A stretch of DNA of 64,000 bases from a virus. Taxonomy: Duplodnaviria > Caudoviricetes. The DNA lies in IMG/VR virus record IMGVR_UViG_3300031420_000495, positions 193,407 through 257,406 of that record. The stretch is one strand, 5' to 3'. The notes below the pieces were generated by a model, which saw only the letters and a list, made by a program, of their open reading frames with translations, was not told the origin of the DNA and searched no databases. Each line of letters opens with the position of its first letter. The first letter of the stretch is position 1. Position numbers and translations under genes: made by a program. Below are positions 1 to 50,496 of this stretch, piece after piece.

Positions 1-29
1 AGTCTCCTTTATATTCTACCCCGAAGGGA

Positions 30-1652
30 TTAGAAGTTCGCGATGATCTGCGGTGCGGCCGAGTCGAAACCGGCGATGTCCAGCATACCGCCGTCTTTCG
101 GATCAGCGATCGTGAACTGCGTGACCGACGTACCGATCACAACCGACTTCGCATTCTTGTTCACGTTCGCGCGGTACTTTGCGAGAGCCTGAACAGGCGA
201 CTGACGACCCGAGTTGGTTTCGTTGTCGGTGATGATGACGAACTTGTCGACTTTGTACTTGTGCGCCGCAGCGTACTCGTAGGTCTTCGCGCAGTCGGTG
301 CTGCCGCCGTTCCAGTTCGCTTTTTCCATCACGTTCAGCACTGCGTCGAGACGCATGCTTGGCGAGATTTTCAGTTCCACGAGGTCTTGCTTGAAACCAA
401 CCACGTGGCTGTTCGGCTGATTGCGAATCACGCCCATTGCCATACATGCCGCAACTTCCGCTGCGTTCAGGTTTGGCGAGCCGTTCACGTTCGAACCCCA
501 CATCGAGCCGGAGATGTCGACACCTACGAGGTAGTTGTCGTCAGTCTTTTCGGCTGCGGCGAATGCAGCGTAGAACGCGTCATCCAGTGCGGTAATGATG
601 CGCTGATCCGGAGTCCAGACCAACGAACCACGCTCACCATGGCCGGCCTTGTACTGCTTCATTGCCTGCAGGATCGTGATTGGGTGCACGCGACCACGAC
701 GAATTGCTTCGACGTCGGTCAGCTTTGCGACAGCCAGCTTCGAGCCTTCGGACAGCGGGCCGAATACACCGTGTGCGGACAGCGAACCCAGTTTACGGAT
801 CAGGGCTGTCATACCCATGTTGCGGACCAGAGCCAGCAACACGTCTTTGTCTTTCAGGAACTGGGTCGGCACCATTTCCCAGGTCAGCAGGTCGGAACCT
901 TCGATCAGACGCAGAACGTCTTTCTTGTCGGTTGCGCGCTTCAGGTACTCGAAGTCAACGAGGACTTGCGGTACTTCTGCGCCTTCTGGCAGCTCACCTT
1001 TTACGGAGTAGCGGAACAGGTTGGACTGCTGGTCGGACGATGGCTTCACGTGCGCGAGACGCAGAACGTCGCGGTGTGCCCAGCCGTTACGCTGTTGGTA
1101 CTTCAGCATCTGCACTGCCAGCTTGTCGATCGTCTTGCCGGTGTACCATGCGGCAACACCACGCTTTGCTGCAGCGTTCCACTTGCCCAGCGCGTCCAAC
1201 ATCGACACGAACAGGAACAGGTGGGTACCGGTACGGCAGACCTTTGGCAGGGCTTCGTACGCAGCAGCGACGGTTTCGGCATTGCCGAAGACAGCAGCCA
1301 GCGCGAGCGCCACGACTGCTGGATCGTTCTTCGGAGCGCGGCCGGCGAGCGAGTATTCGACGATGCGGTTGACCACGCGCAGACCGTCTTCTTTGATGCA
1401 ACGCTTGATCACATCGAAGGACATCTTCGTGGTTTCTTTCGCGCCGACGTAGTAGCCAGCGGATTCCGAACCGATCATGAGGAATCGGTCAAACACGCCG
1501 AAATGATCGAGCGTGAACGTGAAGGCACCGCTGTTGTTCCGCTTCATCTCTGCTTCACGGCCTGGGACCGGAGCTTGCAGTGGTGGAGTGGAAGTCTTCG
1601 CCATGTTGGTCGAAGATGCGTTTGCGAGGTCGGTGTAGATGGATGACGACAT
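30..1652 (-). CDS. rsr: Ro60/TROVE-domain RNA-binding protein with C-terminal vWA domain
   Basis: TROVE motifs (FLMIGSE..Y, KYQQRNGWAHRDVLRLAH, RVHP..IL.A) and vWA MIDAS DISGSM; start trimmed to MSSSIY behind a GAAGGA SD. Confidence 0.95.
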   Translation of the reverse strand: MSSSIYTDLANASSTNMAKTSTPPLQAPVPGREAEMKRNNSGAFTFTLDHFGVFDRFLMIGSESAGYYVGAKETTKMSFDVIKRCIKEDGLRVVNRIVEYSLAGRAPKNDPAVVALALAAVFGNAETVAAAYEALPKVCRTGTHLFLFVSMLDALGKWNAAAKRGVAAWYTGKTIDKLAVQMLKYQQRNGWAHRDVLRLAHVKPSSDQQSNLFRYSVKGELPEGAEVPQVLVDFEYLKRATDKKDVLRLIEGSDLLTWEMVPTQFLKDKDVLLALVRNMGMTALIRKLGSLSAHGVFGPLSEGSKLAVAKLTDVEAIRRGRVHPITILQAMKQYKAGHGERGSLVWTPDQRIITALDDAFYAAFAAAEKTDDNYLVGVDISGSMWGSNVNGSPNLNAAEVAACMAMGVIRNQPNSHVVGFKQDLVELKISPSMRLDAVLNVMEKANWNGGSTDCAKTYEYAAAHKYKVDKFVIITDNETNSGRQSPVQALAKYRANVNKNAKSVVIGTSVTQFTIADPKDGGMLDIAGFDSAAPQIIANF

Positions 1653-1813
1653 GTGTATTTCCTTCACGATAATTTATACGGCTGCACGCGCAGCAAAGAG
1701 CAACAACTCACTGAGAAACAAAATTGCAATCGAGAATTTCAGCGTGTCAAAGTTTGATCTGCCTCCAATTACGGTCAGCAGCAGTGAACGCCTACTCCGC
1801 ATGAATAGCATGC

Positions 1814-1900
1814 AGTAACTATCAGAGTTTCTATCTCTGCAATATCAAGTTTCAGGCACTTGCAAATTGCCGTATACCGCATACGGCGACGTCTGTTACT
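1814..1900. ncRNA. Multi-hairpin (cloverleaf-like) structured RNA upstream of the Ro60 gene
   Basis: AGTAAC/GTTACT closing stem around CAGAG/CTCTG, CAAGT/ACTTG and GCCGTAT/ATACGGC hairpins; no coding ORF. Confidence 0.45.
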
Positions 1901-1924
1901 TCTGGCTTGTCTTTCTAACTCGCG

Positions 1925-2000
1925 TTAAAAGAACAGAGAGCTTTTAGTTTTCAGTTTACGATTAAAGGATAATCGATACGCGGCGGTTTCTCAGTTTGTT
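1925..2000 (-). ncRNA. Possible degenerate Y-RNA-like unit
   Basis: AAC-T-GAGA / TCTC-T-GTT end pairing, shared GATTATCC motif, 3' CTTTT. Confidence 0.3.
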
Positions 2001-2017
2001 GAAGTTATGACCTAGTG

Positions 2018-2101
2018 AAAAGAGCGACAAAGATACAGGAACGGATTTCAATTGGGCGTCCGAAGACAATAATGGAGATAACCGTAAACCTTTCGGTCGC
2101 T
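2018..2101 (-). ncRNA. Y RNA candidate (Ro60 partner)
   Basis: 5' AGCGAC-C-GAAAG pairs with 3' CTTT-GTCGCT, giving the bulged-C helix of Y RNAs; ends in oligo-U; lies in the leader of the Ro60 gene. Confidence 0.75.
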
Positions 2102-2176
2102 TAGTTCATTGTGGGCTTTATGATATTGCCCACTCGATTCGCTACAGTTTCTGCTGCAGCATCAATCTATATATGC

Positions 2177-2182
2177 ATTATA
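2177..2182 (-). promoter_or_regulatory. -10 box (TATAAT) for the ncRNA-Ro60 operon
   Basis: Exact TATAAT on minus strand with AT-rich upstream region. Confidence 0.55.
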
Positions 2183-2366
2183 CAACGTGTTTTTGAACTT
2201 TTGGAACTTTATTTTTGTTCAACCGGTTTGACTGGTTCGAACAGATGGCCATCGCCATCAGGTGCAGAACATGGACCGGTGCGCGAGACACTATCACACC
2301 AAATACATTTCCACACCAGCTTTGCGCGTTCGTCATCAGTCAGTGCAGACATTCAACGACGATCGC

Positions 2367-2969
2367 TCATTTCGCAGTTTCCTTTGCGTACAAGATATTC
2401 TCGACACAAGCGAAGATCATACCAGGAATTTCGGGGATTTGTGCGATTCCGTTGACAATATTTGCGGGACCGTAGTACGTCATCTCGTCCGGCGTGTCGT
2501 GCTTAGGCTGCTGCACGATGATGAACTGGTAGATGTCTTTGTCACGGTACGAACCGATGACGGGTCCGGTGTCGACGACTTTCACGACTTCGATGCCAGC
2601 TGCTTTCAAAGTCTCCATTATTTCTTCGGTCGGAATTTCTTCGCCGGCAGCTTGACGTTCGGCAATTTTCGCAACAGCTTCCAGCCGAGCGCGATCGTAT
2701 TCTTCCGCTTTGTTGATGCGATCTGCTTCAGCAATCTCTTCCGGCGGAATCGTGGACGCCAGAATGTTGACGGTGACGAACAGGCATATCGCGTAGCTGA
2801 TGAACCCGAATGGAATCAGCAGCAACCATGCGAGCGGAACCAGATACGTACCTGCCCACCATCCAGCTGCGAACATGATTACCCACCATGCAATCTTGCA
2901 GCGACGAAGAGCCTTCTTCAGACGCTTGTCCATTTTCTCAGTCATGTTCTTCTCCCAAATAGAATTCAT
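2367..2969 (-). CDS. Hypothetical membrane protein
   Basis: Two hydrophobic N-terminal segments; early-type promoter upstream. Confidence 0.8.
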   Translation of the reverse strand: MNSIWEKNMTEKMDKRLKKALRRCKIAWWVIMFAAGWWAGTYLVPLAWLLLIPFGFISYAICLFVTVNILASTIPPEEIAEADRINKAEEYDRARLEAVAKIAERQAAGEEIPTEEIMETLKAAGIEVVKVVDTGPVIGSYRDKDIYQFIIVQQPKHDTPDEMTYYGPANIVNGIAQIPEIPGMIFACVENILYAKETAK

Positions 2970-3974: not shown

Positions 3975-5629
3975 TATGCGACCTCCTCAATTTCAACTTG
4001 CAAGGTGCCGGTCGTATTCGATCCTGCAAACTCTTTGTCAGTCAGGAACAGATATGCTCCGTTCGGGTTGTATGTGCCGTCAGCATCTGTGATCGTGAAA
4101 CCAGCAAAGAACTGACTTGTGTCAGTGCGACTTGTCAGTGTGGACGAACCTGCGTACTTCGCGGTAACTTTCGTGAAGTCGCTGATCGGAGTTCCGATCG
4201 CTGCAACTTGAGAGAACGGTGCGAAGGTGAGGGTGCGACGCGCGAAACCACCAACAACGTATGCCGAGCCGGACGTAATGACATTGCCGGTAACGTTTGC
4301 CAAGTTCTGGAGAACCAGCGTGTTGAATGTTTGTGGACCATCAACATCGGCGTCAGTGATACGCAGCACGCGGCTGTAAACACCTGCTGCGTTTGTCCAT
4401 GCTCCTTGCCATGTTCCGCTCGATGCTACCAGTGTTGGTGGTGCATTCAGAATCTGGTTTGGTGTGATGCGAACAGTGTAGTCTGTTCCGCCTGGTGTCG
4501 AAGTCAAACGAGTTGGCGAACCGACGATTGTGATCGTTGCTGTTGGAGCGGTATCTGCGATCGCGACAGAAGCGGTTGCAACGGTTGATGCAGCGTTCGA
4601 TGCCTTGGTTGCAGTGATTGTGTAGTTGGCAACTCCATTTACATAGCCGCCACCGATACGTGTGACCGTCTTCGTAGTTGCCATTGTGTTCGGAGCTGTA
4701 ACAGCCAAGTCACCGGAAGTCGTGTAGACTGCAGTGTCTGCGTTTGTAATCGTTGCCGATACAGTTGCCGATTCTGTGCCTTTCAGCGCGGACTGAGTTG
4801 CTGGATACGTAATTGTGCGCGCACCAATTGTTGGGAACGTCTGATTCAGTACGATCGTGTTTGTCGATACTGTGTTTGCGCCGAATGTGCCGAGTGCATT
4901 GCGAGCACGAACTGTAACACTTTGCGCTCCGGAGTTTGTCGCGTGGACAGTGAACGTGCCGGTGAAAGTTTTGAATCCGTTGCCAGCCGAATCCGGTCCA
5001 CCGAGTGCGAGCGACGTAACACTCTTCGATGCACCGCCAGCCACGACTTCAACGTATGTTGCAGCATTGGCAACTGTACCAGAAATGGTAACCAGATCGT
5101 TGTTCTTCGCTTCTGTCTGTGTTCCAGGCAAAGCACCGATAGTTGCAGTAGTGACAGCAGGTCCAACTTCAGCGACATAGATCAATGCTTGTGCAACTGC
5201 GCCAGTGCTTGATTTAGCGGTGACAACAGTGTTGACAGCAATGCCAGTCAGATCAACGGTTCCGCTGAAAAGACGTTTGTCGTATTGGTCTTCGGTAAGC
5301 GTGACGACGCGATCACCACCAGCTTGTGGAGGTACGGTCGTGACGGTAACGGTCGGGGAGTAGAAAGCGGAACCGCCTTCTGCCATGATGGTGACGCGAA
5401 CTGATTGCGTGTCGGAAGTTGCTGCGGTTACAACTCGATTGGCTGGAACAGTGTTTGGCTCATATTGCTTGTTGCCAACAATACCACCTGATGTTGGAGT
5501 AATGTCCGTGATGAACACGCCTCCCGTTGCTGCTTGGCTTGCCACAATCTGCTGATCCACATAATGCTTCGTTGCAATCTCTTGCGGAAGTAATGGATCA
5601 GTTGTGACAGAGCTTTGATAAATCTTCAT
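3974..5629 (-). CDS. Thr/Ala-rich beta-strand (Ig-like) virion structural protein
   Basis: 551 aa T/A/G/V-rich; late promoter CATAAATA at 5672-5679. Confidence 0.65.
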   Translation of the reverse strand: MKIYQSSVTTDPLLPQEIATKHYVDQQIVASQAATGGVFITDITPTSGGIVGNKQYEPNTVPANRVVTAATSDTQSVRVTIMAEGGSAFYSPTVTVTTVPPQAGGDRVVTLTEDQYDKRLFSGTVDLTGIAVNTVVTAKSSTGAVAQALIYVAEVGPAVTTATIGALPGTQTEAKNNDLVTISGTVANAATYVEVVAGGASKSVTSLALGGPDSAGNGFKTFTGTFTVHATNSGAQSVTVRARNALGTFGANTVSTNTIVLNQTFPTIGARTITYPATQSALKGTESATVSATITNADTAVYTTSGDLAVTAPNTMATTKTVTRIGGGYVNGVANYTITATKASNAASTVATASVAIADTAPTATITIVGSPTRLTSTPGGTDYTVRITPNQILNAPPTLVASSGTWQGAWTNAAGVYSRVLRITDADVDGPQTFNTLVLQNLANVTGNVITSGSAYVVGGFARRTLTFAPFSQVAAIGTPISDFTKVTAKYAGSSTLTSRTDTSQFFAGFTITDADGTYNPNGAYLFLTDKEFAGSNTTGTLQVEIEEVA

Positions 5630-5671
5630 TGTGCTAGCTCCAATTTGATATGAGTACTTTCAAGAACTCAC

Positions 5672-5679
5672 TATTTATG
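5672..5679 (-). promoter_or_regulatory. T4-type late promoter (CATAAATA)
   Basis: Matches YATAAATA, which recurs ahead of many genes in the window. Confidence 0.65.
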
Positions 5680-5701
5680 GAACTAGCACAAACAACTTCA
5701 A

Positions 5702-6166
5702 TTACTTCTTGTGCTGTGAAACGAAGTGCGCCATGGAACGAGCCATCGTTTTGACCAGGGTCTTGTGCGGATCGCCTGGGATGATACGCGGCAAGGTCGA
5801 ACCACGCAGACCACCACCGTATCCAGAACGGTCATTGATCTTGCCAGTTGCGAGGAAGTTGAACTTCTGTTTTCCGTTCGAGAAGACAAATGTGCCGTTG
5901 CGAATTGCAGCAGCGGAAGAAATGTCCTTGAAGCCGAGGTCAGTCAGCGCTTTGTATTCGCCAGTTGCTTTGATGTCGGCGCGTGCTGCTTTGACAACAT
6001 CGCTGGTGATTGGGTTCTTCATTCGCTTATTCATCTCAGCGATCCAGTCGTCAACACTGCCGACCAGCTTGCCGGTCTTTTCGCCGGCTGCAGACTTGCG
6101 AGCAAGTGGTTGCGCGGCCGGTGCGTGATAACCTTTTGCTTCGCCAAGTAGTTCATGTACTTTCAT
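5702..6166 (-). CDS. Hypothetical late protein with capsid-targeting-like N-terminus (MKVHELLGEA)
   Basis: ORF, SD, late promoter at about 6199-6206. Confidence 0.75.
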   Translation of the reverse strand: MKVHELLGEAKGYHAPAAQPLARKSAAGEKTGKLVGSVDDWIAEMNKRMKNPITSDVVKAARADIKATGEYKALTDLGFKDISSAAAIRNGTFVFSNGKQKFNFLATGKINDRSGYGGGLRGSTLPRIIPGDPHKTLVKTMARSMAHFVSQHKK

Positions 6167-6206
6167 TTGTTTCTCCGATGAGGGTTAATTCGTGCATGTA
6201 TTTATG

Positions 6207-6230
6207 AAAAAGCCACCGCAAGCGGTGGCT
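6207..6230 (-). terminator. Intrinsic terminator
   Basis: AGCCACC/GGTGGCT stem followed by TTTT on minus strand. Confidence 0.7.
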
Positions 6231-6254
6231 TATAACTTCTCAGCTGTTTTCTAT

Positions 6255-6842
6255 CTACGCAGCTGCACGTAAGTCTTCCCATACACGGGAGTGTTCAGGC
6301 AAGAACGCCTTCAGGTATTCCATCTGGCAAGCTAACACGTTCCTGTTTTCTAGGATCAATGCTTCAGCGCGGTTCGGAGTGTACGGAACGTACAGCAACT
6401 TCATTCCGCATTCTTCCAGCAATTGGCAGTCCTTCTTGTGGTTGCAGCGTTCGCACGCGGTAACAACGTTTGTCCAGATGTCCTTACCACCTTTGGACGT
6501 CGGGATGACGTGGTCGCGGGTCAACTTCAAGTCCGAGAACGATTTTCCGCAGTATGCACACATGTGACGGTCACGACGGAACAGTTCGCGGTTCGTCAGC
6601 GATGGTGCCTTGTGCAGACGTTTCGCTGAAGCGTAACCCTTCACCGCAATGATCGGTGCTGTTTGAATTGTCGAGATACGTCCAGTCGCACGGTTTTCTC
6701 CGCCACGGAAGACGACGTCGCCTTCACCTTCGCCAAGCTGGTACGCGACCAGGTTCTTTGCGTGGTAGGTGATAGCGTCTTCGTACGAAATCCACTTGTT
6801 CGGTTGACCCTGCGAGTCTAGTGATAATATTCTGCTACTCAT
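6255..6842 (-). CDS. HNH endonuclease
   Basis: RDRHMCAYCG..LTRDHVIPTSKGG..WTNVVTACERCNHKK. Confidence 0.92.
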   Translation of the reverse strand: MSSRILSLDSQGQPNKWISYEDAITYHAKNLVAYQLGEGEGDVVFRGGENRATGRISTIQTAPIIAVKGYASAKRLHKAPSLTNRELFRRDRHMCAYCGKSFSDLKLTRDHVIPTSKGGKDIWTNVVTACERCNHKKDCQLLEECGMKLLYVPYTPNRAEALILENRNVLACQMEYLKAFLPEHSRVWEDLRAAA

Positions 6843-26212: not shown

Positions 26213-26287
26213 TGGTGGGGCGCCGCAGAATCGAACTGCGCTCTCTCCGGTTAAGAGCCGGGACTTCGCCAGCAAAGTTTGCACCCC
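26213..26287 (-). tRNA. tRNA-Lys(CTT)
   Basis: Loop CT-CTT-AA; A8. Confidence 0.87.
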
Positions 26288-26292
26288 ATGTT

Positions 26293-26367
26293 TGGTATCG
26301 CCGAGGAGAATCGAACTCCCGTTCCCAGATTGAAAGTCTAGTGTCCTAACCGTTAGACGACGGCGAT
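26293..26367 (-). tRNA. tRNA-Glu(TTC), canonical
   Basis: Loop CT-TTC-AA. Confidence 0.93.
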
Positions 26368-26374
26368 ATAATTC

Positions 26375-26447
26375 TGGTACCACCGGCAGGAGTCGAGCCT
26401 GCGTAATCGCGCTTCGTAGGCGCAACACCGAATCCCTCGGCGGTGGT
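26375..26447 (-). tRNA. tRNA-Arg(ACG), minimal D-arm
   Basis: Loop CT-ACG-AA; D region CCGAGGGATTCGG; T-loop CTCGACT. Confidence 0.8.
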
Positions 26448-26454
26448 ATAATTC

Positions 26455-26781
26455 TTATGCAGCTACACGATCAGGTTTCTGTGCATCGAGCATTTCGATA
26501 TACGCGTGCGGCGAAGTGCCGACATCCAGCGTATGAATTTTCTCGAAGCCGTTTTCCTTCGTAATCATCGAGTCTTTCGACTTGATGCCGCCAGTGTACT
26601 TGCCGTCGCCTTTCTTGTGCATCAGATCGCCGGAAGCCGGATCGATCGAACCCCAATCAGGGGTGTGTGCATCAGCGAGAACTTCGACGTAGTACTTTGC
26701 ACCAGTGCGGATTGATGATACAATGAAGCGTCCGGTTTCGTCAGTGTTCGTGAGGAATCGTTTGGTGAAGTCGGCGTTCAT
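26455..26781 (-). CDS. Hypothetical protein inside the tRNA array
   Basis: Start trimmed to MNADFTKRF behind AGGAG. Confidence 0.8.
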   Translation of the reverse strand: MNADFTKRFLTNTDETGRFIVSSIRTGAKYYVEVLADAHTPDWGSIDPASGDLMHKKGDGKYTGGIKSKDSMITKENGFEKIHTLDVGTSPHAYIEMLDAQKPDRVAA

Positions 26782-26811
26782 GGTGTATCTCCTGCTCTGG
26801 TTATGGGTAAT

Positions 26812-26884
26812 TGGCAACCGCGTAGAGAATCGAACTCTATCCAATTTCGCTCAGAACGAAACGTGCCTGCCAAGGCTCACGGCA
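26812..26884 (-). tRNA. tRNA-Gln(CTG), minimal D-arm
   Basis: Loop TT-CTG-AG; T1.T72; D hairpin GCCT-TGGC-AGGC. Confidence 0.8.
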
Positions 26885-26890
26885 TCTGTT

Positions 26891-26982
26891 TGGCTCCCCG
26901 AGGTGGACTCGAACCACCATAACCGCCGAAGCGGTATACGTCTGATTAACAGTCAGGTCTCTTACCATTAGAGTACCGGGGA
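26891..26982 (-). tRNA. tRNA-Asn(GTT) with 22-nt variable arm
   Basis: Loop CT-GTT-AA; V hairpin ACCGC-TTCG-GCGGT. Confidence 0.85.
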
Positions 26983-26990
26983 ATTGTTAC

Positions 26991-27075
26991 TGGTCGTTGG
27001 GGTAGGAATTGAACCTACGTTGTCAATAATGACCTGGATTATCGGTCCAGTGCCTAACCATTCGGCCACCCAACG
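26991..27075 (-). tRNA. tRNA-Ile(GAT) with long variable arm and C33
   Basis: Loop CC-GAT-AA; Leu-like 3-bp D stem; 15-nt V region; A73. Confidence 0.82.
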
Positions 27076-27086
27076 ATATGTTTAGA

Positions 27087-27169
27087 TTCTTCGACAAATG
27101 CCCGAGGGCGTGCGGTTACAAGGGGGAATCGTAAAAGGATAACCTTGTGATTGCGAAGCGGTCAAAGAA
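27087..27169 (-). ncRNA. Y-RNA-like ncRNA inside the tRNA array
   Basis: TTCTTTGAC-C-G / T-GTCGAAGAA end helix; ACAAGG/CCTTGT stem with pyrimidine-rich loop; GGTTATCC motif shared with 2018-2101. Confidence 0.6.
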
Positions 27170-35765: not shown

Positions 35766-36808
35766 TTGGCAAGTCCATTTGGTGTGAAGGCGCGGCCAGC
35801 TCGCCAATGTTTAGTAGTCTGCACGTGGCCTTTACGTACATACTTTGCTACGGATTTTCGGAATTCTCCGTACTTGAAACCGTCAGCCACGCGAATCACA
35901 TAGCCTTCATCGGTATCCCAGTTCAGTTCCGCTTCGATCTTCTTCAACACTTCCATCGAGAAGATACCGTCGTACAACACTGGCACAGGTGTTATGTCCA
36001 GCAGCTGGAAGTATTCCAGCGTTTCGTCCCACGAAAGGCATTCGTTCATCTCGGTCCAGATGCTGAAACCGAGGAAGTACGATTGCAGATCGTCGTAATG
36101 AATCGAGTGCTCGGCCCACAGATTCTCTCCGCAGACACGCCAACCTGCCGGCAAGTTGAAGCACACATTCTCGATCAAGAACTTCTTGACCCATGCACGG
36201 TCTTCACCGCCACGGCTATCGATCGAACGCGCGTGCACATGGCCGTCGCTGTACGCACTCGTGTTTTCACCGTCCATTTTCTTGGTGATGATAACACGTT
36301 TTCCTTCGAACTGCGAACAATCTTTCAACGCCTTGTCGTCGTCATGAATGCCTGGCGAATGCGGCAAGTGGAACGTGCGTTCGTACTTGACGTAATCCGT
36401 GAATTCGCCGAGAACCCATGCGAGAACTTTCTGCACTGATTCGTCGAAGAACAGTTCACCCTTCCCACGCCGGCCGTCTTCGAGAATTGGATTGCCCCAC
36501 TTGTCGTAAACGTGATCCGGATAGAAATGAGGCGGCACGACTTTCTTCGTGATGCCAGCCATCTCGCGCACGTTCTCGACACTGTAGATTGTCTCTTCGC
36601 ACTTCATGTGGTCTTCCTCGCAAACGGTTGCACCGTTGTCGAGATAGTATCCACCATCAGGCCAGAGACGACGTTCCAGAATGTGGTGCGCGTCTAGCTT
36701 TTTCTCAGGCGTCTCTGCAGCTGTTCGCTTACAGAAGACGCATTTATGATTGTCACGGGCAAAAACTCCTTCGCGGAATTCATCCCGTGACAGGAGTTTT
36801 GGTTCCAT
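35762..36808 (-). CDS. RNA ligase-family protein with N-terminal HNH-like module
   Basis: CVFC..LDAHHILERR..NGATVCEEDH, then KKMDGEN, CGENL, DEGYVIR, VAKYVR. Confidence 0.85.
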   Translation of the reverse strand: MEPKLLSRDEFREGVFARDNHKCVFCKRTAAETPEKKLDAHHILERRLWPDGGYYLDNGATVCEEDHMKCEETIYSVENVREMAGITKKVVPPHFYPDHVYDKWGNPILEDGRRGKGELFFDESVQKVLAWVLGEFTDYVKYERTFHLPHSPGIHDDDKALKDCSQFEGKRVIITKKMDGENTSAYSDGHVHARSIDSRGGEDRAWVKKFLIENVCFNLPAGWRVCGENLWAEHSIHYDDLQSYFLGFSIWTEMNECLSWDETLEYFQLLDITPVPVLYDGIFSMEVLKKIEAELNWDTDEGYVIRVADGFKYGEFRKSVAKYVRKGHVQTTKHWRAGRAFTPNGLAK

Positions 36809-49389: not shown

Positions 49390-50496
49390 TTACGACAGAG
49401 TAAAACTTTTCGCGTTGAGCGACGCTGCAACAATTTCACGACGAGCATTGGCAATTGCTTCACCCAACGCTTTGCCTTGTACTTCTGGGAACTGCGATGC
49501 TGCCACCACTTTCGTGGCTTCCGCGATGTCGGCCAACTGCTGAGCCGAGATAAACAACTTGTTCTGCATGCTTTCTTCCAACTTCATCGCTTGAATCAAG
49601 TCAGCGAAGTCAGAACCTTGTGACCAGACTTTGGTCGTCACCAACAACGCGAACACGTTGTCAGCGCTTGCTTCTTCAGTGCAACGAACACGGTTGATGT
49701 TCGTATACAGCTTCTGTGTTCGAATCGGTGCCGATTGTATCACAGGTTTGCGCGGCCATGCTGCTGCGGTCAACGCGGTAAAGTACATCAAACGTTCTTC
49801 AGAACTTTCGATGCGCTTGACTGCAAAACCGGCATGCGTCATTGCAACATGATCGAACTCGAACAAGCCAGCAAAGAAGTCGACGTGTTCGAACGCGCCC
49901 ATGATGTCCAACACATGGAAGAAGTGTCCGGCCATGTTTTCACCCAAGGCCTTTCCCATCTCGGCCCAGAACCGCTCGTGTGGCAAGTGGTTCAACTCGC
50001 CGTCGGCAACCATCTCACGCGCCAACGACATCGTCGAGTTGGCGATCGTGAAACCGAAGTAACGAGCCGCGAACCGTGCCAAGCGAACAACACGCAACGG
50101 GTCTTCAGCAAATGCCGGCGACACGTGACGCAAGACTTTCACTTCCAGATCGTAACGGCCGTCGAACGGATCGATGATTTCGCCGGTCTCAATGTCTTTG
50201 GCCATCGCGTTGATGGTCAAGTCGCGACGCGACAAGTCTTCGGTCACAGTGACGGTCGGATCGAAGTCGACGGCGAAGCCATGATAGCCGACGCCGGTCT
50301 TACGTTCGATGCGAGCCAGCGCGTATTCGTCTTTGGTTTCCGGATGCAAGAACACAGGAAAGTCCGCACCGACTTGTTCGTAGCCCAATGCGATCATTTC
50401 TTCTGGTTTTGCACCAGTGACCAGGTAGTCGACGTCTTTGGGCTTTAAGCCCAACAGCTCGTCGCGGACTGCTCCGCCGACAATGTAGATTTTCAT
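49390..50496 (-). CDS. cca: CCA-adding tRNA nucleotidyltransferase (class II)
   Basis: [38 protein letters not shown]; start trimmed to MKIYIV. Confidence 0.95.

What the first reader, a model, noticed from the sequence alone, without database searches (positions are those of the whole stretch)
30..2182. Phage Ro60 operon led by a classical bulged-C Y RNA and further structured RNAs
Seen: about 500 nt of non-coding sequence lie between a TATAAT box (2177) and the TROVE gene. At 2018-2101 the minus-strand RNA pairs AGCGAC-[C]-GAAAG with CTTT-GTCGCT and ends in oligo-U. Established: this bulged-C, G.U helix is the Ro60-binding element of Y RNAs (human GUC-C-GA/UU-GAC), and bacterial Rsr acts with Y RNAs in structured-RNA decay and tRNA-damage responses. 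This RNA lacks the tRNA-mimic domain of YrlA, so it looks like the metazoan/YrlB type. Inference: it is a phage RNP for handling damaged tRNA or rRNA.
Basis: partly seen in the sequence, partly recalled or inferred. Interest (0 to 1): 0.72.

Follow-up and report, generated by a model that had tools for sequence, protein, structure and literature searches.

The report
Two Y RNAs lead phage Ro60
An uncultured giant phage's gene for the RNA-surveillance protein Ro60 is preceded by two conserved partner "Y RNAs" and a small look-alike hairpin at the ribosome-binding site; this is a known kind of system, in a new, richer version.

Summary
Window 30-1652 (-) encodes a Ro60 protein (TROVE + Ro60 vWA), preceded by about 555 nt of non-coding DNA.

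I call this module Y-a.

The reading needs four corrections:
- The U-rich run after the helix is not a 3' tail. It is an internal loop closed by a further, covarying outer helix.
- The "further structured RNA" is a second, roughly 300-nt Y module, Y-b (2001-1701). It has its own bulged C, a closing stem of at least 14 bp, and a closed 7-bp hairpin plus a D-like stem.
- A capped copy of the bulged-C helix (1698-1679) lies 14 nt before the ribosome-binding site. It is found in 40 of 59 loci against 0.3 by chance, and is a candidate Ro60 feedback operator. Earlier notes of this scan describe such hairpins on other DNA.
- The tRNA mimic is not missing. A tRNA-ordered Y RNA with an open acceptor stem and CCA sits in the tRNA array (24489-24362), and related giant phages carry the same kind.

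The same 5' motif occurs upstream of 72 of 80 bacterial Ro60 genes, so Y-a is a YrlB-like member of the known Y RNA class. Rfam models do not detect it. Ro60 binding, RNA ends and function are untested.

The parts
30..1652 (-). Ro60 (Rsr) gene, 540 aa, with TROVE ring and Ro60 vWA domains; ATG at 1652-1650
   Evidence: Pfam hits. PDB matches 1yvp, 9nen and 2nvo at about 1e-97. The start codon and the AAGGA ribosome-binding site are conserved in relatives.
1660..1665 (-). Ribosome-binding site (GAAGGA) of the Ro60 gene
   Evidence: Sequence; an AAGGAG-like block is conserved before the ATG in relatives.
1679..1698 (-). Y-op: capped copy of the bulged-C helix (CUUU-GCUGC-gcgu-GCAGC-C-G), 14 nt 5' of the ribosome-binding site; candidate Ro60 feedback operator
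   Evidence: Present 15-45 nt before the start codon in 40 of 59 loci, against a mean of 0.3 (maximum 2) in shuffles and 0 of 54 control segments. With sequence-only anchors, pairing is 41/41, 34/41, 32/41, 33/41 and 35/41, and shifted registers collapse.
1701..2001 (-). Y-b: long Y module. Closing stem 1995-1986 with 1719-1710, plus outer pairs 2001-1996 with 1706-1701. Bulged C at 1985. GAUUAUC at 1974-1968. Conserved motif at 1925-1904. Hairpin with 5-bp stem and 7-nt loop at 1839-1823. Closed 7-bp hairpin at 1815-1797. D-like stem from 1796. 3' strand GAAAU..UCGAU..UUUUG at 1745-1719.
   Evidence: Closing stem of 14 positions is 74-100% paired in 23 distinct relatives, with 3-6 pair types at each position above the invariant C-G pair, against about 10-75% in shifted registers. 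RNAalifold supports the upper stem AUYGG/CCGAU and three inner hairpins; 19 of 21 pairs have compensatory changes. Coordinates.
2008..2108 (-). Outer helix P1 2108-2102 with 2014-2008. 3' internal loop 2022-2015. Helix P2 2101-2096 with 2028-2023. Bulged C at 2095. P3 2094-2092 with 2031-2029. GGUUAUC at 2083-2077. ACGG 2086-2083 pairs with CCGU 2044-2041. UUCG-loop hairpin at 2067-2058.
   Evidence: sequence, fold, coordinates. (covariation of P2 and P3). P1 is at least 6 bp in 19 of 29 relatives, mean 6.1 against 4.7 in shuffles; own model R2 scores 40 bits, E 7e-9.
2111..2159 (-). Two leader hairpins H1 (2159-2142) and H2 (2133-2111) between the promoter and Y-a
   Evidence: Minimum-energy fold. 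Compensatory changes between the window and its nearest relative L001 in both stems. Not examined further.
2177..2206 (-). Promoter-like site: -10 TATAAT 2182-2177 and a weak -35 TTCCAA 2206-2201 (18-nt spacer)
   Evidence: Sequence. The -10 block and following CATATATAG are conserved in L001 and L002. It is unique in the window. The consensus scan did not call it.
24362..24489 (-). tRNA-ordered Y RNA, outside the finding: 7-bp acceptor stem, A73, encoded CCA, and D and T arms. The anticodon arm is replaced by a capped bulged-C helix (UUUU-GUCGC-loop-GUGAC-C-G) plus GGUUAUC.
   Evidence: Alignment A4 is 93.8% paired, with 18 of 26 pairs compensatory and slid controls at 35-47%. Model R1 gives full-length hits of 56-120 bits in all five related giant-phage genomes, while ordinary tRNAs score 48 bits or less. 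ARAGORN and Rfam did not call it.
27087..27169 (-). Compact Y-like RNA in a tRNA slot of the array: UUCUUUGAC-C-G ... GGUUAUC ... AUUU-GUCGAAGAA
Evidence: I read the sequence and saw a 9-bp helix, a bulged C and GGUUAUC. My model R2 does not reach significance there (6.9 bits).

Best explanation
The 555-nt stretch upstream of this giant phage's Ro60 gene is a composite leader. It carries two Ro60-partner Y RNAs: Y-a, about 100 nt and YrlB-like, and Y-b, about 300 nt and an expanded YrlA-like form. A third, capped mini-copy of the Ro60-binding helix lies next to the ribosome-binding site.

Shown:
- All three share one signature: a helix ending in a C-G pair, one bulged C, then G.U.
- Y-a and Y-b also carry GGUUAUC 9-10 nt downstream, and UUUG on the partner strand.
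- The helices covary across about 50 related uncultured phage loci.
- The same 5' strand marks the Y RNA arrays beside bacterial Ro60 genes.

Inferred:
- A promoter at about 2182 transcribes Y-a, Y-b and Ro60 as one precursor, since no terminator lies between them.
- Host RNases release the Y RNAs, as published for M. smegmatis YrlA and YrlB.
- Ro60 grips the bulged-C helix and 5' strand of each Y RNA.
- The variable loops tether Ro60 to other factors, such as host PNPase as in RYPER and phage phiLo, or tRNA-handling enzymes.
- Free Ro60 binds the mini-copy beside the ribosome-binding site and limits its own translation.

Further Y RNAs from the tRNA array, one of them built in tRNA order with an open acceptor stem and CCA, supply the tRNA-mimic partners. 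The likely role is RNA quality control or tRNA maintenance during infection.
For: - Ro60 identity.
- Helix and motif in the sequence.
- Motif enrichment: 42 of 49 loci against 0 hits in 272 kb; expected 0.13-0.26 per window.
- Y-a helix: 29 of 29 paired at five positions with 34 double-change cells, register shifts collapse; outer helix covaries.
- Y-b: closing stem and inner helices covary.
- Same strand motif upstream of 72 of 80 bacterial Ro60 genes, about 40% of copies followed by a T arm.
- Positive control: the Rfam YrlA model detects RNAs beside distant phage Ro60 genes.
- No terminator-like site on the minus strand between 2182 and 1652.
- Capped helix at the ribosome-binding site in 40 of 59 loci against 0.3 expected.
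- tRNA-ordered Y RNA.
- Published precedents: two Y RNAs processed from one precursor upstream of rsr in M. smegmatis, and the motif GNCGAA(N)G (PMC4201824); Yrl1 and Yrl2 upstream of Thermus phage phiLo Ro60, which binds them and host PNPase (PMC12135203).
- RNA-repair gene content: Thg1-like and HD genes downstream, Rnl2 ligase and CCA-adding enzyme in the window.
Against: - No Rfam Y_RNA or YrlA match at E<=10, even on the 111-nt stretch alone.
- The RNA ends are unknown and no terminator defines a discrete small RNA.
- The whole-leader fold is not more stable than shuffles (z = -1.1).
- The -35 element is weak and the promoter scan did not call the site.
- Y-a's motif has A where the published bacterial motif has its first G.
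- My Y-a model does not find Y-b, and scores the array's compact Y-like RNA at only 6.9 bits, so the modules share little beyond the docking helix.
- Ro60 binding, processing and feedback are all untested.
Confidence: 0.75

Rival explanations
1. The whole leader acts only in cis. It is a long autoregulatory 5' UTR carrying three Ro60 docking sites that set the stability or translation of the Ro60 mRNA, and no free Y RNAs are released.
For: No terminator between the modules and the gene. Y-a is enclosed by an outer helix rather than ending in a U tail. Y-b ends 2 nt before the capped helix, which abuts the ribosome-binding site.
Against: In M. smegmatis the same layout yields processed, Ro60-bound YrlA and YrlB (PMC4201824). 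Y-type RNAs of the same design also sit in the tRNA array, far from Ro60, where a cis role is impossible. Large, lineage-specific loops with their own covarying hairpins suggest surfaces that act in trans.
Confidence: 0.15
2. Y-a is a transcription terminator or attenuator (hairpin plus U run) that gates read-through into Ro60, and its likeness to a Y RNA is coincidental.
For: The window has CUCUUUUC directly after the helix.
Against: The terminator scan finds nothing there. The helix below the bulge is only 5-6 bp and A-U rich. In relatives the tract reads CCCUCUC, GCAUAACG and the like, and is followed by a covarying outer helix. The invariant CCG...GGUUAUC strand has no role in termination.
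Confidence: 0.03
3. The modules are structured RNAs for a partner other than Ro60, such as a neighbouring protein or an RNase, and merely travel with the Ro60 gene.
For: Binding has not been tested. The conserved Y-b motif at 1925-1904 has no assigned partner.
Against: The conserved strand matches the published Ro60-contact motif. It co-occurs with Ro60 in phages at 55-82% protein identity and in bacteria at about 40%, while the neighbouring genes vary.
Confidence: 0.05

Closest known systems
YrlA and YrlB of Mycobacterium smegmatis and Salmonella Typhimurium (Chen et al. 2014, PMC4201824; Rfam RF02553)
   Same: There are two Y RNAs on the Ro60 strand next to the gene; in M. smegmatis both lie upstream and come from one precursor. 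The 5' motif is GNCGAA(N)G followed by YUAY (here ACCGAAAG ... GGUUAUC). The 5' and 3' ends pair into the docking stem. One partner is compact (YrlB, like Y-a) and one carries tRNA-like parts (YrlA, like Y-b).
   Different: The Rfam YrlA model gives no hit. Y-a has an extra outer helix and a pyrimidine-rich internal loop. Y-b is about 300 nt, with roughly 120 nt of extra hairpins and a T-like hairpin whose loop is not canonical in this window (AUAGAAA). The first motif base is A, not G.
Thermus phage phiLo Ro60 with Yrl1 and Yrl2 (PMC12135203; PDB 9KOP, 9L5Y)
   Same: It is a phage-encoded Ro60 with two Y-like RNAs directly upstream, containing a CGAA motif. Binding to the phage Ro60 and to host PNPase was shown there.
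   Different: The phiLo protein is only distantly related (E 1e-5). An operator-like copy and tRNA-array Y RNAs are not mentioned in the passages of that paper I read.
Metazoan Y RNAs (Rfam RF00019; Ro60 contact strand GGUCCGA, as cited in PMC4201824)
   Same: They share the bulged C flanked by a C-G pair and a G.U pair, a 5'/3' terminal stem and a large internal loop. From memory only, human Y1 and Y4 also read CCG-N10-GUUAUC.
   Different: The RF00019 model gives no match. There is no Pol III-type oligo-U 3' end. The pair next to the C-G pair is A-U here and U-A in vertebrates. This RNA is embedded in an mRNA leader.
Circularly permuted tRNA view of YrlA (Wang et al. 2018, bioRxiv 10.1101/312249)
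   Same: The array RNA at 24489-24362 has the same parts as YrlA: acceptor, D and T arms, with the Ro60-docking helix in the anticodon-arm position.
   Different: The order is that of a normal tRNA. The acceptor stem is open with an encoded CCA, and the docking helix is capped by a loop. In YrlA the acceptor stem is closed and the docking helix carries the RNA ends.

Membership tests
Y RNA class (Ro60-bound non-coding RNA) | Encoded within a few kb of the Ro60 gene on the same strand (bacterial and phage members) | tested here: met
   Y-a and Y-b lie 49-456 nt upstream on the Ro60 strand. The same holds in 42 of 49 related loci.
Y RNA class (Ro60-bound non-coding RNA) | Terminal stem formed by the 5' and 3' ends, holding the conserved Ro60-contact strand (GGUCCGA in animals, GNCGAA(N)G in bacteria) with a bulged C | tested here: met
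   GAC-C-GAAAG pairs with CUUU-GUC. The helix covaries in 29 of 29 relatives. There is one deviation: A replaces the first G of the bacterial motif.
Y RNA class (Ro60-bound non-coding RNA) | Length of about 80-130 nt with a large internal loop | tested here: inconclusive
   Y-a spans 79 nt from P2 to P2, or 101 nt with the outer helix, and has a large loop. Y-b is about 300 nt. The true RNA ends are unknown.
Y RNA class (Ro60-bound non-coding RNA) | Physically bound by Ro60 as a discrete stable RNA | not testable with these tools
   The phage is uncultured.
Rfam Y_RNA (RF00019) | Match to the covariance model | tested here: not met
   No match at E<=10 in 1550-2450, in 2005-2115, or anywhere in the 257-kb genome record.
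Rfam YrlA (RF02553) | Match to the covariance model (gathering score 69 bits) | tested here: not met
   No hit near Ro60. The only weak hits (21 bits or less) are in the tRNA array. As a positive control, the model scores 35-44 bits beside distant phage Ro60 genes.
YrlA (tRNA-mimic Y RNA) | T arm and D arm with tRNA-like conserved bases, flanking a closed acceptor-like stem | tested here: inconclusive
   Y-a has none. Y-b has a closed 7-bp hairpin followed by (U/A)GUAGG and a D-like stem, and a preceding hairpin with a 5-bp stem and 7-nt loop. That loop reads UCGAA or UCGUA in most of the aligned relatives and AUAGAAA here. The array RNA at 24489-24362 has canonical T and D arms, but in tRNA order.
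YrlB-like compact Y RNA | A second Ro60-linked RNA with the docking motif but no full tRNA-like domain, next to a YrlA-type RNA | tested here: met
   Y-a sits 6 nt upstream of Y-b. About 60% of the motif copies beside bacterial Ro60 genes also lack a T arm. The class has no formal model.
Intrinsic terminator | G+C-rich hairpin directly followed by a U run that ends the RNA | tested here: not met
   No site was called on the minus strand. The tract is not U-rich in relatives and is enclosed by an outer helix.

The most novel reading that the evidence does not exclude
A clade of uncultured giant phages runs an elaborated Ro60 system in three layers. Two Y RNAs are cut from the Ro60 leader. A docking-site mimic beside the ribosome-binding site gives Ro60 feedback control of its own translation. 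Y RNAs built in true tRNA order (open 7-bp acceptor stem, encoded CCA, canonical D and T arms, Ro60-docking helix in place of the anticodon arm) are made from the tRNA array. These last RNAs would be handled by RNase P, the CCA enzyme and perhaps a synthetase, and would deliver Ro60 to the tRNA machinery. They would also be the un-permuted form from which YrlA could have arisen.
Probability: 0.35. Interest if true: 0.8.

Novelty: new variant of a known kind. Interest (0 to 1): 0.6.

Why it matters
Ro60 and Y RNAs are conserved from bacteria to humans, where Ro60 is a lupus and Sjogren autoantigen, yet how Y RNAs direct Ro60 is still open. This locus does four things:
- It defines a phage Y RNA family that the current Rfam models miss.
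- It shows that one short strand signature (RNC-C-G ... GGUUAUC) links the phage and bacterial partners and recalls the animal Ro60 contact strand.
- It offers a simple, testable case of Ro60 feedback control through a docking-site mimic at its own ribosome-binding site.
- It points to tRNA-ordered Y RNAs inside phage tRNA arrays. Together with the phage's RNA ligase, CCA-adding enzyme and Thg1-like enzyme, these suggest that Ro60 takes part in keeping tRNAs working during infection, possibly against host tRNA-cutting defences.

Tried and rejected
- Rfam at gathering and at E<=10 on the window, the leader, the 111-nt element and five relatives: only tRNAs and a chance RAGATH-27 hit.
- RF00019 and RF02553 over the whole genome record: nothing near Ro60.
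- ARAGORN: no tRNA or tmRNA in the leader, and it misses the tRNA-ordered Y RNA.
- DNA search of cultured phages: no match. The best cultured-phage Ro60 proteins are under 41% identical.
- Whole-leader minimum-energy fold: z = -1.1, uninformative.
- Promoter and terminator scan: it called neither the TATAAT site nor any minus-strand terminator.
- The first MAFFT alignment put the N9 and N10 spacer groups one column out of register, so I re-anchored on sequence motifs.
- My Y-a model R2 finds only Y-a in the window. Y-b is not found and the array's compact Y-like RNA scores 6.9 bits.
- No RNA holder listed among public runs for window 1-2400; the only full holders are two phyllosphere DNA runs that may be the source. 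I did not lay reads.
- RtcB: absent from this 71%-complete record.
- A local hairpin ACCG/CGGU, which the minimum-energy fold chose in the array RNA, was considered. I set it aside because those bases never vary, so it cannot be tested, and the long-range helices do covary.
- Two reviews (PMC10870794, PMC6047535) are not held, so I could not check whether tRNA-ordered Y RNAs or the operator-like hairpin have been described there.
Full report
**What is there**

The window is the last 64 kb of a 257-kb IMG/VR giant-phage record. It carries 29 tRNA genes. Window 30-1652 on the minus strand encodes a 540-aa protein with Pfam vWA_Ro60 (4.9e-51) and TROVE (4.5e-28). It matches the solved Xenopus and human Ro60 and D. 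radiodurans Rsr structures at about 1e-97. Between its ATG (1652) and the next upstream ORFs (2209-2352, 47 aa; 2367-2969, 200 aa) lie about 555 nt with no supported ORF. A TATAAT box is at 2182-2177.

- On the minus strand, AGCGAC (2101-2096) pairs with GUCGCU (2028-2023).
- C2095 is unpaired, and G.U, A-U, A-U follow (2094-2092 with 2031-2029).
- Ten bases after the CCG stands GGUUAUC (2083-2077).

**Relatives**

Protein-guided scans gave 46 viral and 34 metagenome loci, 59 of them non-redundant. Their Ro60 is mostly 55-82% identical to the window's protein, and several sit on contigs of 330-376 kb. Cultured phages reach only about 40% identity. In 185,579 species genomes only two contigs come close (73% and 67%), and bacterial Ro60 proteins stay at or below 44%. 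This is therefore a clade of uncultured, mostly giant phages.

**Is it more than chance?**

- The pattern CCG-N9/10-GRTTAYC is expected 0.13-0.26 times per window.
- It occurs at least once in the 700 nt upstream of Ro60 in 42 of 49 clade loci, and at least twice in 30.
- It never occurs in 272 kb of the remaining sequence of those loci.
- I anchored the 5' side on CCG and the 3' side on the invariant UUUG column of an alignment made without structure. With these anchors, the five pairs below the bulged C are paired in 26 of 26 distinct sequences, with up to five pair types per position. Shifting the register by one to three bases destroys this.
- The pair-counting tool on alignment A5 gives 29 of 29 at each of the five positions, with 13, 13, 7, 1 and 0 double changes. 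The G.U pair holds in 27 of 29 and the next A-U in 23 of 29.

The helix is real and conserved.

**Correction 1: the oligo-U is not an end**

The tract after the helix (CUCUUUUC, 2022-2015) reads CCCUCUC, CCUUUC or GCAUAACG in relatives. It is followed by a further helix that pairs with the bases just upstream of the 5' arm:
- GAACUA with UAGGUC in the window
- CGAUUGG with CCAGUCG or CCAAUCG
- AAGAGUUC with GAACUCUU
- GCUACGU with ACGUAGC
- AUAGAUUUA with UAAAUCUAU

A contiguous outer helix of at least 6 bp is found in 19 of 29 relatives. The mean best length is 6.1 against 4.7 in shuffles, whose maximum mean is 5.3. The terminator scan finds nothing on the minus strand. Y-a therefore spans at least 2108-2008.

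**Correction 2: a second, long module (Y-b)**

The same motif recurs at 1986-1968 (AAAC-C-G ... GAUUAUC). Its partner lies 267 nt downstream (UUUU-GUUUCUCAGU, 1723-1710), with further pairs 2001-1996 and 1706-1701. In 23 distinct relatives, 14 stem positions are 74-100% paired, with 3-6 pair types at each position above the invariant C-G pair. Most shifted-register positions pair in only 10-60% of sequences.

RNAalifold, run without my input, recovers the following; 19 of its 21 pairs have compensatory changes:
- the upper stem that pairs the GG of GGUUAUC with a conserved UCCGA
- a hairpin with a GCCGAAAA-type loop
- a hairpin with a roughly 5-bp stem and 7-nt loop (RNAalifold pairs four of them)
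- a closed 7-bp hairpin

After the 7-bp hairpin come (U/A)GUAGG, a stem enclosing variable hairpins, and GAAAU-UCGAU-UGCAA-UUUUG. This is the order acceptor-like stem, then D-like stem, then 3' docking strand, as in YrlA. The T-like loop is UCGAA or UCGUA in most of the aligned relatives but AUAGAAA here. No tRNA or YrlA model matches. I therefore call the tRNA likeness of Y-b partial.

**Correction 3: a capped copy at the ribosome-binding site (Y-op)**

Two bases after Y-b lies CUUU-GCUGC-gcgu-GCAGC-C-G (1698-1679), 14 nt before GAAGGA. It is the same docking helix with the strand order reversed and a loop on top.
- A helix of this form (T-T/C-G, at least 5 bp, a bulged C, then G) lies 15-45 nt before the start codon in 40 of 59 loci.
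- Shuffles give 0.3 on average (maximum 2), and control segments give 0 of 54.
- Stems vary (GCUAC/GUAGC, GUUGGC/GCCAAC, GCUGUC/GACAGC, GUUCACU/AGUGAAC).
- With naive sequence anchors, pairing is 41/41, 34/41, 32/41, 33/41 and 35/41.
- Some Chloroflexia and Myxococcota Ro60 genes have GCCCC-loop-GGGGC-C-GAAAGGAG, where the motif runs into the ribosome-binding site. Across all bacterial loci, however, the count (24 of 77) is not clearly above the in-gene control (13 of 77).

After finding this I looked up earlier notes of this scan. Four of them (e1-2694084, e1-5339578, e1-2641530, e1-5353484) describe such hairpins before rsr genes on other DNA. I found no paper on Ro60 autoregulation.

**Correction 4: tRNA mimicry exists elsewhere in the phage**

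The motif search also hit 24409-24427. The 128 nt at 24489-24362 lie in a gap of the tRNA array that ARAGORN and Rfam leave empty. They read as follows:
- acceptor stem GCCGACG with CGUCGGC, then A and CCA
- a D arm and a GGUUCGAAUCC T arm
- in place of the anticodon arm: GAAAC-UCGU-...-UUUU-GUCGC-loop-GUGAC-C-G-N9-GGUUAUC

Homologues lie in the tRNA arrays of related giant phages, sometimes two or three in tandem. Two more lie next to distant Ro60 genes (L051, L084). On ten sequences the structure is 93.8% paired, 18 of 26 pairs have compensatory changes, and slid controls give 35-47%. A model built from them gives full-length hits of 56-120 bits in all five related genomes searched, while ordinary tRNAs score 48 bits or less.

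The published view is that YrlA resembles a circularly permuted tRNA with a closed acceptor stem (bioRxiv 10.1101/312249). This RNA has the same parts in normal tRNA order. I read it and saw a 9-bp helix, a bulged C and GGUUAUC, but my Y-a model scores it at only 6.9 bits.

**Relation to known families**

Chen et al. 2014 define the bacterial motif GNCGAA(N)G, followed by YUAY, and cite GGUCCGA as the strand that Xenopus Ro60 contacts. The window's ACCGAAAG ... GGUUAUC fits this except for the first base.

In 72 of 80 bacterial Ro60 loci the same strand, typically GGGCCG-N9-GGGUUAUC, stands on the Ro60 strand, mostly upstream of the gene and often in three to six tandem copies. About 40% of the copies are followed by a T arm. 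The bulged C is therefore common to bacterial and animal Y RNAs, and 'metazoan type' is not a useful label.

Two Y RNAs processed from one precursor upstream of rsr are published for M. smegmatis. Two upstream Yrl RNAs bound by a phage Ro60 are published for Thermus phage phiLo. Rfam's Y_RNA and YrlA models do not match here. YrlA does score 35-44 bits beside distant phage Ro60 genes, so the tool works and this family lies outside the models.

**Mechanism**

Shown: the shared docking signature, its covariation, its linkage to Ro60, the absence of a terminator, and the position of the capped copy.

Inferred:
- Y-a, Y-b and Ro60 are co-transcribed from about 2182. The -10 box and the block after it are conserved in the two nearest relatives, but the -35 is weak.
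- The precursor is processed into free Y RNAs.
- Ro60 binds the bulged-C helix.
- The loops tether Ro60 to PNPase or to tRNA enzymes.
- The capped copy gives feedback on Ro60 translation.

Gene content fits an RNA-maintenance role. A Thg1-like enzyme and an HD protein lie downstream of Ro60; Thg1 recurs in L001, and HD in L003, L004 and L043. An Rnl2-type RNA ligase is at window 35837-36298 and a CCA-adding-type enzyme at 50128-50490. RtcB was not found.

**Verdict**

Y-a alone is a new member of a known kind. The locus as a whole is a new variant of the Ro60 and Y RNA system: an expanded Y-b, a docking-site mimic at the ribosome-binding site, and tRNA-ordered Y RNAs in the tRNA array. Binding, RNA ends and function remain untested.

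Noticed in passing
window 24362-24489 (-): A tRNA-ordered Y RNA lies in a gap of the tRNA array. It has an open 7-bp acceptor stem, A73, CCA and canonical D and T arms, and a capped Ro60-docking helix plus GGUUAUC replaces the anticodon arm. It is conserved with covariation in related giant phages. ARAGORN and Rfam miss it.
   Followed up: yes
window 27087-27169 (-): A compact Y-like RNA sits in another tRNA slot, with a 9-bp helix, a bulged C and GGUUAUC after a 14-nt spacer.
   Followed up: partly
L112, L121, L122, L126, L128 (bacterial genome contigs), positions 36-1046: Verrucomicrobial and Chloroflexi-lineage Ro60 genes are preceded by tandem arrays of four to six Y modules (GGGCCG-N9-GGGUUAUC). 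Some copies have a T arm and some do not.
   Followed up: partly
L136, L138, L140, L144, L148, L152, L157, L172, about 1097-1160: In Chloroflexia and Myxococcota a capped GCCCC-loop-GGGGC-C-GAAAGGAG hairpin runs directly into the ribosome-binding site of the Ro60 gene. It looks like the same operator idea in bacteria.
   Followed up: partly
L108 (G000:186000-193500) 5215-6318 (-) and 4460-5146 (-): A Thg1-like tRNA-His guanylyltransferase and an HD phosphohydrolase lie 1-2 kb downstream of Ro60, after an unknown 201-aa gene. DHFR, a bactofilin-like protein, PrkA and DUF444 follow.
   Followed up: partly
window 35837-36298 (-) and 50128-50490 (-): An Rnl2-type RNA ligase domain (PF09414, 93 bits) and a CCA-adding or poly(A) polymerase family domain (PF01743, 80 bits) are present, so the phage carries a tRNA repair toolkit. 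RtcB was not found.
   Followed up: no
window 1904-1925 (-), and the same place in most Y-b relatives: The block ACGCAAGUUGAAAGACAAGCC is highly conserved inside Y-b. A shorter GAAAAGAC stands at the matching place of the tRNA-ordered Y RNA, before the T arm. I could assign no partner or pairing.
   Followed up: no
L109 741-860: A 36.6-kb contig binned in an Acinetobacter MAG carries a 73%-identical Ro60 with the same Y-a and Y-b motifs. It is either a mis-binned phage contig or a hint at the host genus.
   Followed up: no
window 24837-27075 (-): Several array tRNAs (Lys, Asp, Glu, Asn, Ile) are 83-92 nt long, which is unusual for these amino acids. Earlier notes of the scan also flag them.
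   Followed up: no
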